This document shows positions 26,359-26,680 of a DNA stretch of 46,608 nucleotides, one piece after another. Position numbers and translations under genes: made by a program. How positions within the stretch are numbered: the first letter of the stretch is position 1; each line of letters starts with the position of its first letter. Source of the DNA: an uncultured Planctomycetia bacterium (GTDB taxonomy: Bacteria; Omnitrophota; Gorgyraeia; Duberdicusellales; 4484-171); assembly GCA_964526615.1 (NCBI GenBank), contig CAZGLF010000001.1, positions 29,179 to 75,786 of the forward strand, written 5' to 3'. The notes under the pieces are model-generated. The model had not been told where the DNA came from. It made no database searches and saw only the letters and a list, made by a program, of their open reading frames with translations.

Positions 26359-26680
26359 TTGACTTAATGTAGTTACCAAAAAACAATATAACTATGCGAG
26401 GGAGGGGATTTGTAAACAATCCGGCGAAGCCGGCTATTGCGAAGCAATATTATTGTTTCCAAAATTGTATAGTCTTTAGATGAAAACTCTTGTTGAGCTA
26501 ATGTAGTTACCAAAAAACAATATAACTATGCGAGGGAGGGGATTTGTAAACAATCCGGCGAAGCCGGCTATTGCGAAGCAATATTATTGTTTCCAAAATT
26601 GTATAGTCTTTAGATGAAAACTCTTGTTGAGCTAATGTAGTTACCAAAAAACAATATAACTATGCGAGGGAGGGGATTTG
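26359..26680. repeat. Tandem repeat, 2.4 copies of a 134-bp unit; each unit carries the last 18 nt of tRNA-Leu plus ~30 nt of its 3' flank and a double-hairpin module
   Basis: TAATGT recurs at 26365, 26499 and 26633. Units 1 and 2 looked identical by eye after the first few bases. tRNA 3'-end copies lie at 26395..26412 and 26529..26546; the genuine end is 26663..26680. Confidence 0.9.

What the first reader, a model, noticed from the sequence alone, without database searches (positions are those of the whole stretch)
26413..26458. Conserved hairpin module (GCTTCGC mini-hairpin exactly 11 nt from each tRNA-fragment junction) with compensatory stem changes at three independent junctions
The three junctions align as follows:
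- Val (+, 14386..14406): CTCGC-TTC-GCGAG-ATTGCATA | CAAATCC...
- Leu 3' units (minus strand of 26413..26433): CCGGC-TTC-GCCGG-ATTGTTTA | CAAATCC...
- Leu 5' spacer (+, 26848..26868): CTTGC-TTC-GCAAA-AGTTATTA | CCGCCACCCTCGC

In all three, GCTTCGC is followed by exactly 11 nt ending in TA, and then the tRNA-derived fragment. The stems differ by paired substitutions (C-G/G-C versus T-A/C-G) that preserve base pairing. Val and Leu-3' also share GCAATAG upstream and GATTG downstream, forming an enclosing helix.

On the opposite strand the loop reads GCGAAGC, the well-known hyper-stable DNA mini-hairpin. The Leu unit has two of them. A fixed distance between a subterminal hairpin and the junction is how HUH/Y1 single-strand transposases (IS200/IS605, RAYT/REP, PATE-like MITEs) define their cleavage sites. 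Two of the junctions fall at the same T-loop position (after GGTT), a sequence shared by many tRNAs. I therefore propose a miniature hairpin-ended element, or single-strand recombination site, that targets tRNA genes. No transposase gene is present in this window.
Basis: partly seen in the sequence, partly recalled or inferred. Interest (0 to 1): 0.75.

Follow-up and report, generated by a model that had tools for sequence, protein, structure and literature searches.

The report
Tiny hairpin elements inserted in tRNA genes
The flagged hairpin is the conserved end of a family of ~125-145-base, gene-less mobile elements in Omnitrophota bacteria that insert inside tRNA genes and carry a spare copy of the displaced tRNA end, so the gene stays intact; no element quite like this appears to have been described.

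Summary
Both tRNA genes in the window (an Omnitrophota MAG) carry 134-145-nt gene-less units: one after tRNA-Val, 2.4 tandem copies after tRNA-Leu(GAG), and about 1.8 copies in front of tRNA-Leu.

Related genomes show clean empty sites at tRNA-Val and at tRNA-Leu (both ends). In other Omnitrophota genomes, homologous units sit in tRNA-Tyr, tRNA-Pro (two genomes) and tRNA-Thr, again with empty sites in relatives.

Each unit has three parts:
- a 13-21-nt "patch" that rebuilds the tRNA;
- an unstructured AT-rich spacer;
- a Y-shaped hairpin module abutting the displaced native fragment.

The module's stem covaries: 97% of cells are paired and 8 of 11 pairs change on both sides. The stem continues across the junction. 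A 4-nt internal sequence pairs with the first 4 nt of the displaced fragment and changes with the target (TTTG/CAAA, TTCG/CGAA, GAGG/CCTC, GCGG/CCGC).

GCTTCGC and the 11-nt spacing are subfamily traits. One copy has 13 nt, and another has a TTTTA loop instead.

No recombinase gene lies in the window, and the enzyme class is unresolved. I read the module as a folded single-strand recombination site used in trans. It is a new variant of tRNA-targeting mobile DNA.

The parts
14207..14280 (+). tRNA-Val(TAC), intact. Its last 18 nt (14262-14279) are supplied by the element; they are followed by TGG, not CCA.
   Evidence: ARAGORN and Rfam at 70.7 bits. The ortholog L001 ends ...CCCACCA with no insert.
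14262..14406 (+). Val unit of 145 nt: patch 14262-14279, AT-rich unstructured spacer 14280-14344, Y-module 14345-14406.
   Evidence: 18-nt direct repeat with 145-nt spacing. Absent from the orthologous tRNA-Val/thrS spacer in L001-L003. The left part has no significant fold, z = +0.24.
14345..14406 (+). Y-module of the Val unit: g4 AATG (only 2 of 4 pair), G, stem ATGCAAT 14350-14356, hairpin 1 at 14362-14384, hairpin 2 CTCGC-TTC-GCGAG 14386-14398, stem' ATTGCAT 14399-14405, A 14406.
   Evidence: ssDNA fold -20.8 kcal/mol, z = -4.8. Covariation counts.
14407..14427 (+). Displaced native 3' end of tRNA-Val (CAAATCCTGTACCGCCCA + CCA).
   Evidence: Identical to 14262-14279. CCA is encoded, as in the uninterrupted ortholog L001.
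26663..26746 (-). tRNA-Leu(GAG), intact. Its 5' 13 nt (26746-26734) and 3' 18 nt (26680-26663) are element-supplied patches.
   Evidence: ARAGORN and Rfam. Orthologs: L004 has no insert at either end; L006 and L009 have the 5' insert only.
26547..26680 (-). Leu 3' unit, proximal copy (134 nt). Its Y-module is at 26547-26597.
   Evidence: Tandem repeat family D1/D2. Structural scan hit 26543-26597 with 4/4 junction pairing.
26413..26546 (-). Leu 3' unit, distal copy (134 nt). Its Y-module is at 26413-26463: g4 TTTG 26463-26460, G, stem AAACAAT 26458-26452, hairpin 1 TATTGC-TTC-GCAATA 26449-26435, hairpin 2 CCGGC-TTC-GCCGG 26433-26421, stem' ATTGTTT 26420-26414, A 26413. The finding's interval 26413-26458 lies inside this module.
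   Evidence: Fold z = -5.3. Scan hit.
26354..26412 (-). Truncated third Leu 3' unit: an 18-nt tRNA 3' fragment plus about 30-41 nt of unit start, then unique DNA. No CCA and no native flank.
   Evidence: D2 third copy at 93%. Flank comparison P = 0.000. Relatives encode CCA followed by about 17 nt to the AbpE stop.
26734..26868 (+). Leu 5' unit, proximal (135 nt), read on the strand antisense to the tRNA: patch 26734-26746, spacer (the new upstream region of the tRNA) 26747-26813, Y-module 26814-26868. The module is g4 GCGG 26814-26817, G 26818, stem AATAACT 26819-26825, hairpin TTGC-TTC-GCAA 26849-26859, stem' AGTTATT 26861-26867, A 26868.
   Evidence: D3 repeat with 135-nt spacing. Scan hit 26814-26872 with 4/4 pairing. 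Fold. Homologous single-copy units at the same position in L006 and L009.
26869..26881 (+). Displaced copy of the tRNA-Leu 5' end (antisense CCGCCACCCTCGC).
26882..26990 (+). Distal, truncated 5' unit. It is about 87% identical to 26747-26838 plus some further bases. It has no hairpin module and no further tRNA fragment before the response-regulator gene stop at 27023.
   Evidence: D3 at 87%. Flank test P = 0.000. Sequence.

Best explanation
The flagged hairpin is the structured end of a 134-nt insertion element. The window holds three kinds of a family of 124-145-nt gene-less elements that live inside Omnitrophota tRNA genes.

Shown:
- Each unit has three parts. (i) A 'patch': a copy of the tRNA from the insertion point to the mature end. 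This is 13-21 nt of the 3' end, or 13 nt of the 5' end. It now completes the working tRNA. (ii) About 60-80 nt of AT-rich, unstructured DNA. (iii) A 45-66-nt Y-shaped module that abuts the displaced native fragment.
- The module reads g4 - G - 7-nt stem - internal hairpin(s) - 7-nt stem' - N | t4. Here t4 is the first 4 nt of the displaced tRNA fragment and g4 is its complement.
- The stem and the g4/t4 pairing covary between copies and with the target.
- The target is always cut after TT and before C. The position is T55|C56 of the T-loop, the 60|61 loop/stem border, or 13|14 of the D-arm read on the antisense strand.
- Orthologous loci in relatives are uninterrupted.

Inferred:
- The module is the element's recombination site and is used as a folded single strand. 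Sequence drifts while pairing is kept, which points to structure rather than a duplex protein-binding sequence.
- The fold acts as a self-splint. It holds the element's 3' end (stem'-N) next to the 5' end of the cut target through the g4:t4 pairing.
- A trans-encoded enzyme then exchanges strands at TT|C (equally possible: TTC|, giving NTNC| on both partners).
- Replication fixes the insertion. The patch keeps the essential tRNA functional, so the insertion is tolerated.
- Tandem copies arise by re-insertion, unequal exchange or multimeric copying.

Enzyme class: not identified. My ranking is an HUH-type single-strand nuclease (IS91/Rep-like, about 0.35), roughly equal to a structure-specific tyrosine recombinase (integron IntI / XerCD-CTX-like, about 0.3), ahead of anything else.

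The confidence of 0.55 is for the whole statement. That these are trans-mobilised insertion elements of tRNA genes I put at about 0.85.
For: Insertion and empty sites:
- tRNA-Val: window against L001-L003.
- tRNA-Leu: L004 is empty at both ends; L006 and L009 carry only the 5' unit.
- tRNA-Tyr, Thr and Pro in L029 against L033 and L032.
- tRNA-Pro in L036.

Family:
- The four T-loop units align and share the module.
- Unit sizes are 124-145 nt.
- A metagenome scan with a 21-base pattern gave one real extra copy and one chance hit.
- In all loci held, every duplicated tRNA end comes with a module and every 4/4 module abuts a tRNA end.

Structure:
- Folds give z = -3.0 to -5.7 for 3'-type modules.
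- 5'-type modules fold less strongly: z = -2.5 in L009 and L006, and -1.1 in the window copy.
- 97% of cells are paired, 8 of 11 pairs change on both sides, and the covariation score is 0.83 against 0.23 in shuffles (0/500). Slid controls pair at 31-53%.
- g4/t4 classes are TTTG/CAAA, TTCG/CGAA, GAGG/CCTC and GCGG/CCGC. TTCG/CGAA occurs in L036, whose own T-loop is CGAA.
- Hairpin 1 differs completely in sequence between the Val and Tyr copies, but both form a 9-10-bp stem.

Other points:
- The left part of the unit is unstructured.
- Copy number differs between assemblies of one species: 1 full unit in L029, at least 2 in L030 and L028.
- No recombinase gene lies in the window or the loci.
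- In single-copy insertions the repeat is the tRNA fragment only; the flanks are unrelated, P = 0.1-0.75.
Against: - No enzyme, no excised or circular form and no polymorphic filled/empty pair within one population was seen. Mobility is inferred from interspecies comparison.
- Covariation cannot tell ssDNA from RNA, and I chose the alignment register by eye from nine non-independent modules.
- The Val copy pairs only 2 of 4 at g4/t4.
- Exact-pattern scans of 185,579 species genomes found only chance hits. The family therefore looks narrow, or the patterns were too strict.
- The three arrays end in a truncated unit with the native fragment missing. The simple model does not predict this.
- How a member acquires a new patch together with a matching g4 is unexplained.
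- Perfect direct repeats of a tRNA end are the classic signature of ordinary double-strand integrases.
Confidence: 0.55

Rival explanations
1. Ordinary double-strand integrase biology. On this reading the units are minimal attL-attR remnants, or CIME-like non-autonomous derivatives, of larger tRNA-integrating islands or prophages. They would be mobilised, if at all, by a conventional tyrosine integrase acting on duplex attP. The hairpins would be incidental features such as former terminators or arm sites.
For: - Direct repeats are made of the tRNA end and the gene is reconstituted.
- The T-loop position is a classical integrase sublocation (my knowledge: Williams 2002, NAR).
- Tandem arrays are known for integrase elements, and CIMEs are documented (PMC5704250, PMC7563491, listed).
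- An archaeal recombinase-bearing element that displaces a tRNA 5' fragment is known (PMC3293823).
- Omnitrophota mobile elements do carry tyrosine integrases.
Against: - Six independent loci in at least four genomes have the same 124-145-nt size and the same module. Random internal deletions would not give this.
- The stem next to the crossover covaries instead of keeping a fixed protein-binding sequence.
- g4 tracks the target.
- No full-length relative was found in viral contigs, phages or plasmids, or beside any copy.
Confidence: 0.22
2. Not mobile. On this reading the units are local tandem duplications of tRNA ends plus lineage-specific intergenic hairpins, which would serve as transcription terminators or processing signals for the tRNA transcripts.
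For: - The Leu hairpin 2 scores as terminator-like.
- The units lie directly downstream or upstream of tRNAs.
- Arrays have plain tandem-repeat geometry with truncated last units.
Against: - Homologous modules occur at five different tRNAs in different genomes, and a 28-nt stretch is identical between window-Val and L029-Tyr.
- About 100 nt of sequence is absent from the empty sites.
- The tails are not T-runs in the Val, Tyr or Pro copies.
- The 5' type carries the same module on the opposite strand relative to transcription.
- The enclosing stem and its pairing with the displaced fragment have no role in termination.
Confidence: 0.06
3. RNA-level element. The module plus the adjacent 13-21-nt tRNA fragment would be transcribed as a scaffold-plus-guide RNA, like the omega-RNA of TnpB or IscB. 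Alternatively, the unit would spread through an RNA intermediate by target-primed reverse transcription. In either case the conserved fold would be an RNA fold.
For: - Covariation fits RNA as well as ssDNA.
- The layout is scaffold followed by a terminal 13-21-nt target-matching segment.
- One junction is precise, and arrays have ragged far ends.
- The displaced 13-nt fragment is perfectly kept in three lineages.
Against: - The patch recreates the very target next to the same TT, so a guide would attack its own locus.
- g4 sequesters the first 4 nt of the supposed guide.
- There is no tnpB, iscB or reverse-transcriptase gene in the window.
- No Rfam family matches.
- Single-copy insertions have both ends precise and constant size, unlike 5'-truncated retrocopies.
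Confidence: 0.07

Closest known systems
tRNA-gene-integrating islands or prophages with tyrosine integrases, and their non-autonomous CIME derivatives
   Same: - Insertion inside a tRNA gene.
- The element carries the displaced tRNA end, so the gene is rebuilt.
- Direct repeats are made of the tRNA end.
- The T-loop is a preferred position.
- Tandem accretion occurs.
- CIMEs lack their own recombinase.
   Different: - The units are 124-145 nt with no gene at all.
- The site next to the crossover is a covarying Y-shaped fold rather than conserved duplex core or arm sites.
- Variants target the D-arm and carry the 5' end plus a new upstream region.
- No cognate integrase element was found.
IS91 family / rolling-circle HUH (Y2) transposons, and eukaryotic Helitrons
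   Same: - No true target duplication.
- The target is a tetranucleotide with T at position 2 (GTTC, CTTG). Here the targets read GTTC or ATTC if the cut is placed after the shared C, and GTTC is the G53-T54-T55-C56 of every tRNA gene.
- There is a single imperfect subterminal palindrome next to the terminating cleavage site.
- Intermediates are ssDNA circles.
- Termination failures give extra DNA (PMC13181058).
   Different: - IS91 elements are 1.5-2 kb and encode TnpA.
- No IS91-like ori end or gene is seen here.
- IS91 elements are not known to carry a patch of their target or to pair an internal 4-mer with the flank.
- The cleavage position here is not determined.
IS200/IS605 (IS608, ISDra2) and their PATE derivatives; REP/RAYT
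   Same: - Small hairpin-defined elements.
- The cleavage site is set at a fixed distance from a hairpin.
- Target choice uses 4-nt base pairing with an internal guide (PMC5934647 and PMC6006769 abstracts).
- Non-autonomous copies are mobilised in trans.
   Different: - IS200/IS605 elements need hairpins at both ends; here only one end is structured.
- Their guide pairs with the 4 nt 5' of the cut; here the pairing is with the 4 nt 3' of the junction and simply continues the stem.
- Here the elements have 13-21-nt flanking repeats.
- There is no GTAG-type REP head.
- The elements are not extragenic high-copy palindromes.
Folded single-strand recombination sites of tyrosine recombinases: integron attC and CTX-phage attP(+)
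   Same: - Sequence-variable, structure-conserved imperfect hairpin.
- The crossover lies inside the stem.
- There is a conserved mismatch near the crossover.
- The distal structure is branched or variable.
- Insertion of a small circle is fixed by replication.
- Tandem arrays occur (my knowledge).
   Different: - No RYYYAAC/GTTRRRY core and no dif-like site.
- The target is a tRNA gene, not attI or dif.
- The bases beyond the crossover are target-specific and covary, instead of being universal.
- No intI or integron context.

Membership tests
tRNA-integrating integrase elements / CIME | Insertion within a tRNA gene, flanked by direct repeats of the tRNA end, with the gene reconstituted | tested here: met
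   The tRNAs score as intact.
tRNA-integrating integrase elements / CIME | An integrase gene inside the element, or (for a CIME) a cognate integrase-bearing element with the same att sites in the same or related genomes | tested here: not met
   The units have no ORF. No integrase lies in the 46.6-kb window or next to copies in L028, L029 or L036. Viral, phage and plasmid searches were empty. Whole genomes could not be searched.
IS200/IS605 / PATE (HUH Y1) | Subterminal imperfect hairpins at both ends | tested here: not met
   The right end is strongly structured. The left 77-86 nt fold no better than shuffles, z = -2.0 to +1.0.
IS200/IS605 / PATE (HUH Y1) | Insertion 3' of a fixed tetra/pentanucleotide without flanking repeats; the guide 5' of the hairpin foot pairs with the 4 nt 5' of the cut | tested here: not met
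   The left flank is always ..TT (GGTT, GATT, AGTT, AATT), but 13-21-nt repeats flank the unit. In addition, g4 pairs with the 4 nt 3' of the junction.
IS200/IS605 / PATE (HUH Y1) | tnpA (Y1 HUH) present in the genome | not testable with these tools
   Only the window and loci of at most 21 kb could be read. None holds such a gene.
REP / RAYT (REPtron) | Palindromes of 20-40 nt with a conserved GT[AG]G head, extragenic, in many copies, often as BIME pairs near a RAYT gene | tested here: not met
   The modules are 45-66 nt and Y-shaped, have no GTAG head, and occur only at tRNA ends.
MITE | Terminal inverted repeats at both ends plus a short fixed-length target-site duplication | tested here: not met
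   The repeat finder shows no terminal inverted repeats bounding a unit. The flanking repeats are 13, 18 or 21 nt and always end at the mature tRNA terminus.
Integron attC | R''/R' boxes RYYYAAC...GTTRRRY with the crossover at G|TT, in cassette arrays next to intI/attI | tested here: not met
   The junction bases are (A/G/T)|C followed by target-specific bases. The stems are A-N5-T. There is no intI in the window.
IS91 family (HUH Y2) | Target tetranucleotide GTTC/CTTG at the ori end, a ter palindrome beside the cleavage site, no duplication, and a tnpA of about 400 aa | tested here: inconclusive
   The target reads GTTC or ATTC and the donor ends ATAC/TTAC/TTGC/TTTC if the cut is after the shared C. 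A palindrome sits beside that end. These points were compared with PMC13181058. No tnpA or ori-type end was seen, and the cut position is unknown.

The most novel reading that the evidence does not exclude
These would be a previously unrecognised class of self-patching, hairpin-guided single-strand DNA insertion elements. A roughly 130-nt unit would choose its target in the loop of a tRNA-gene arm through a reprogrammable 4-nt (sometimes 7-9-nt) internal guide that splints its own end to the cut target. It would repair the gene with its own copy of the tRNA end. It would be moved by an as yet unknown, possibly new, trans-acting nuclease or recombinase of Omnitrophota.
Probability: 0.3. Interest if true: 0.85.

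Novelty: new variant of a known kind. Interest (0 to 1): 0.72.

Why it matters
- tRNA genes are the classic landing pads of large integrating elements. Here the same trick, carrying a spare tRNA end, is used by units of about 130 nt with no genes. That would make them the smallest self-patching insertions I know of.
- The target-matched 4-nt pairing across the junction suggests a DNA-encoded, reprogrammable way of choosing the site. That is of interest for recombinase and transposase mechanism and for tool building.
- The units also change tRNA gene expression signals. They remove the encoded CCA and provide a new upstream region for tRNA-Leu.
- They break assemblies (N gap in L028, contig ends in L026, L030 and L035) and can mislead tRNA annotation in MAGs of an uncultured phylum.

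Tried and rejected
- Exact look-ups of the window's own proteins (ThrRS, AbpE, P0001) found no contig. The rest of the source genome could therefore not be read.
- The genome-contig scan with CNSGCTTCGCSNGATTGNNTACRA gave 14 hits. All are in unrelated phyla and none sits at a tRNA end, so they are at chance level.
- Three viral-contig scans gave 0 hits. Phage and plasmid BLAST gave no match.
- L035, a closer relative of L029, did not cover the tRNA cluster.
- I thought by eye that the flanks beyond the tRNA fragment were similar in the Val, Pro and Thr copies, which would mean a long target duplication. A shuffle test rejected this, P = 0.2-0.75.
- A terminator reading was considered. Only the Leu hairpin passes a loose terminator scan, and no promoter or terminator signal exceeds shuffles.
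- No Rfam family matches the units, even at E <= 1.
- The two orphan ORFs inserted in the Thr-Tyr-Gly clusters of L029 and L036 are not homologous to each other and have no recombinase domain. They are not a shared candidate enzyme.
- Five of the six literature searches looked for a prior description and found none; the sixth was a look-up on IS91 target sites.
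Full report
**Source and context**

The window comes from a Candidatus Omnitrophota MAG. Its ThrRS (14467-16170) is 100% identical to one NCBI protein on a 75.8-kb contig. It is at most 79% identical to everything else, and all the named hits among those are Omnitrophota. GC content is about 37%.

Every sizeable ORF in the window is housekeeping. Examples are the V/A-ATPase operon, thrS-infC-rplT, pheST, dnaG-rpoD and gatCAB. There is no integrase, transposase, HUH nuclease or reverse transcriptase. The window has two tRNA genes, tRNA-Val(TAC) at 14207-14280 (+) and tRNA-Leu(GAG) at 26663-26746 (-). 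Both are involved in the finding.

**Observation check**

The three junctions read exactly as reported.

- tRNA-Val: the last 18 nt (CAAATCCTGTACCGCCCA) recur 145 nt downstream.
- Downstream of tRNA-Leu: a 134-nt unit beginning at the same T-loop position is present 2.4 times.
- Upstream of tRNA-Leu: the first 13 nt of the tRNA plus about 92 nt recur 135 nt further up at 87% identity.

GCTTCGC alone is only mildly over-represented: 8 matches against 3.6 expected, with 4 of 100 shuffles reaching 8. The composite structure is not chance. The module folds with z-scores of -3.0 to -5.7. A scan that ignores both GCTTCGC and tRNAs finds 5 hits in the window against 0.65 in shuffles. That scan asks for G-A-N5-T, a gap of 15-65 nt, the perfect reverse complement, and at least 3 of 4 pairs across the junction. 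Every 4/4 hit in the window and in all related loci abuts a tRNA fragment.

**These are insertions**

Orthologous loci were fetched through the neighbouring proteins.

- GCA_964629655.1 (ThrRS 79% identical): tRNA-Val ends ...CCCACCA, 36 nt before thrS, with no insert. tRNA-Leu(GAG) sits 6 nt after the response-regulator stop and 17 nt from the AbpE stop, with nothing at either end.
- Two sister species (L006-L008 and L009-L011): these carry one homologous unit at the 5' position only.
- In the window the working tRNA-Val ends CCCA|TGG. The displaced copy keeps the CCA seen in the uninterrupted ortholog.

**More copies elsewhere**

A 21-base pattern scan of JGI metagenomes gave one chance hit and one true hit. 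Longer contigs of the true-hit organism (L028-L030) and two relatives (L032, L033) show the following.

| Locus | tRNA | Unit | Repeat / junction | Empty site |
|---|---|---|---|---|
| L029 | tRNA-Tyr(GTA), which also holds a group I intron | 144 nt | T-loop junction | L033 (CCA-T-tRNA-Gly) |
| L029 | tRNA-Pro(GGG) | 143 nt | 21-nt repeat including CCA | L032, L033 |
| L029 | tRNA-Thr(TGT) | 124 nt | 13-nt repeat; junction at the 3' edge of the T-loop | L033 |
| L036 (GCA_043815445.1) | tRNA-Pro | 133 nt | tRNA's own T-loop reads CGAA | L032, L033 |

L029 has one full Tyr unit, whereas L030 and L028 (the same species, other samples) have at least two. Across everything held, duplicated tRNA ends and modules always coincide.

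**Anatomy of a unit**

A unit consists of a patch, a spacer and a module.

- The patch runs from the insertion point to the mature tRNA end.
- In single-copy insertions the similarity between the two repeat copies stops exactly at the mature tRNA end, P = 0.1-0.75 for the flanks.
- The spacer is AT-rich and does not fold better than shuffles.
- The module is a three-way fold. It reads g4 - G - 7-nt stem (A-N5-T) - one or two internal hairpins - 7-nt stem' - N | t4.
- The last internal hairpin, often (C/S)NSGCTTCGCSNS or CTTGCTTYGCAAG, is contiguous with stem'. The two can therefore stack into one helix of about 17 bp capped by the triloop.
- The 5' type has the same plan when read on the strand antisense to the tRNA.

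**Covariation**

For nine modules I concatenated g4-N-s7 and s7'-N-t4 (alignment A3).

- 97% of cells pair.
- 8 of 11 pairs show changes on both sides.
- The covariation score is 0.83 against 0.23 in shuffles (0/500).
- Slid controls pair at 31-53%.
- Stems are ATGCAAT/ATTGCAT, ATGCGAT/ATCGCAT, AAACAAT/ATTGTTT, AACAACT/AGTTGTT, AATAACT/AGTTATT and AACAGCT/AGCTGTT.
- Hairpin 1 of the Val and Tyr copies shares no sequence yet forms a 9-10-bp stem in both.

The helix crosses the junction. The four bases before the stem are complementary to the first four bases of the displaced fragment, and they change with the target.

| g4 | t4 | Target |
|---|---|---|
| TTTG | CAAA | T-loops of Leu, Pro and Tyr |
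| TTCG | CGAA | L036 tRNA-Pro |
| GAGG | CCTC | tRNA-Thr |
| GCGG | CCGC | tRNA-Leu D-arm, three lineages |

The Val copy pairs only 2 of 4. Caveats: I chose the register by eye, the nine sequences are related, and covariation cannot separate ssDNA from RNA.

- The 11-nt spacing equals 3 nt of hairpin strand plus 7 plus 1. It becomes 13 nt in L029 tRNA-Pro, which has a 7-bp hairpin.
- The L036 copy has a TTTTA loop and no GCTTCGC at all.
- The mini-hairpin is therefore a subfamily trait, not the determinant.
- Assignment to IS200/IS605, RAYT or PATE fails on tested features. Only one end is structured. The pairing is with the 4 nt 3' of the junction. The units are flanked by repeats.

**Target rule**

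The base 3' of every junction is C, and the two target bases 5' of it are TT: GGTT|C, GATT|C, and antisense AGTT|C or AATT|C. These sites lie in the T-loop or D-loop of the tRNA gene.

Because the C is shared, the cut could equally lie one base to the right. Both partners would then end NTNC| (targets GTTC or ATTC; donors ATAC, TTAC, TTGC or TTTC). GTTC is the universal G53-T54-T55-C56. It is also the target tetranucleotide of IS91-family rolling-circle transposons. Those elements have a single palindrome next to the terminating cleavage site, make no duplication, use ssDNA circles, and over-run when termination fails (PMC13181058). This is a lead, not a membership.

**Mechanism**

Shown: insertion at TT|C, the patch, the covarying fold that includes the first 4 nt of the displaced fragment, and the absence of any coding capacity.

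Inferred:
- The fold is the recombination site and works as a single strand.
- It splints the element's 3' end to the cut target through g4:t4.
- A trans-encoded enzyme exchanges strands, and replication fixes the product.
- The patch makes insertion into an essential gene harmless.

I cannot name the enzyme. An HUH-type nuclease and a structure-specific tyrosine recombinase (integron attC or CTX attP style) fit about equally well.

The main rival is ordinary duplex integrase biology with CIME-like remnants. It explains the direct repeats and the T-loop position. It does not explain the constant tiny size, the covarying stem or the target-tracking g4. No full-length partner was found.

**Unexplained**

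- The three arrays (window Leu 3', window Leu 5', L029 Tyr) end in a truncated unit and the native fragment is missing. All single copies end cleanly in the native fragment plus native flank. This may mean multimeric or rolling-circle-like insertion with imprecise termination, or later deletions.
- The 5' Leu unit is present in the window (the outgroup), in L006 and in L009, but absent from L004, the sister of L006. Either it was lost there or it was gained repeatedly.
- How a member acquires a new patch together with a matching g4 is unknown.

**Limits**

- Only about 190 kb of Omnitrophota DNA could be read.
- The big collections could be searched only by exact patterns, and the genome scan returned chance hits only.
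- No literature description was found in five searches aimed at prior descriptions. Absence from that library is not proof of novelty.

Noticed in passing
L029 1910-2163 (tRNA-Tyr at 1885-2216): A group I intron (Rfam RF00028, 97.6 bits, E = 1.4e-25) interrupts the anticodon loop of tRNA-Tyr(GTA) in this Omnitrophota MAG. ARAGORN misses the gene. The orthologs in L032, L033 and L036 have no intron.
   Followed up: partly
L029 1272-~1884: An ORF is inserted between tRNA-Thr and tRNA-Tyr, where relatives have only 11-24 nt. Its N-terminus matches the DNA-binding region of PHROG 'HNH endonuclease' families (1e-7). It has no Pfam or PDB hit. It is probably a free-standing homing endonuclease beside the intron.
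   Followed up: partly
L036 8662-9857: A 1.2-kb insert lies between tRNA-Tyr and tRNA-Gly and holds two ORFs (78 and 272 aa) with no Pfam or PHROG match. It is not homologous to the L029 ORF. This is another unrelated insertion in the same tRNA cluster.
   Followed up: partly
L028 9764-9862; starts of L026 and L030; end of L035: Assemblies break or carry N gaps exactly at the tandem units or at a tRNA T-arm. These elements therefore fragment MAG assemblies and hide copy-number variation.
   Followed up: no
window 14467-16170: ThrRS is 567 aa and shows only tRNA_SAD, class II core and anticodon-binding domains. No TGS N-terminal domain was detected. The longest ORF (from TTG at 14359) overlaps the element, but the likely start is the ATG at 14467.
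   Followed up: no
window 6965-14071: A V/A-type ATPase operon (subunits E, A, B, D, I and c) lies directly upstream of tRNA-Val. The synteny with thrS-infC-rplT is conserved in relatives.
   Followed up: no
L006 3722-4486 (also L007 and L008): A metallo-beta-lactamase-fold gene with an Anti-Pycsar Apyc1 Pfam hit is inserted between AbpE and tRNA-Leu in one species only.
   Followed up: no
window 26663-26680 and 14262-14282; L029 1104-1119: The element-supplied tRNA 3' ends lack an encoded CCA (followed by TAG, TGG or TAT), whereas the native ends in relatives encode CCA. The patched tRNAs should therefore depend on the CCA-adding enzyme.
   Followed up: no
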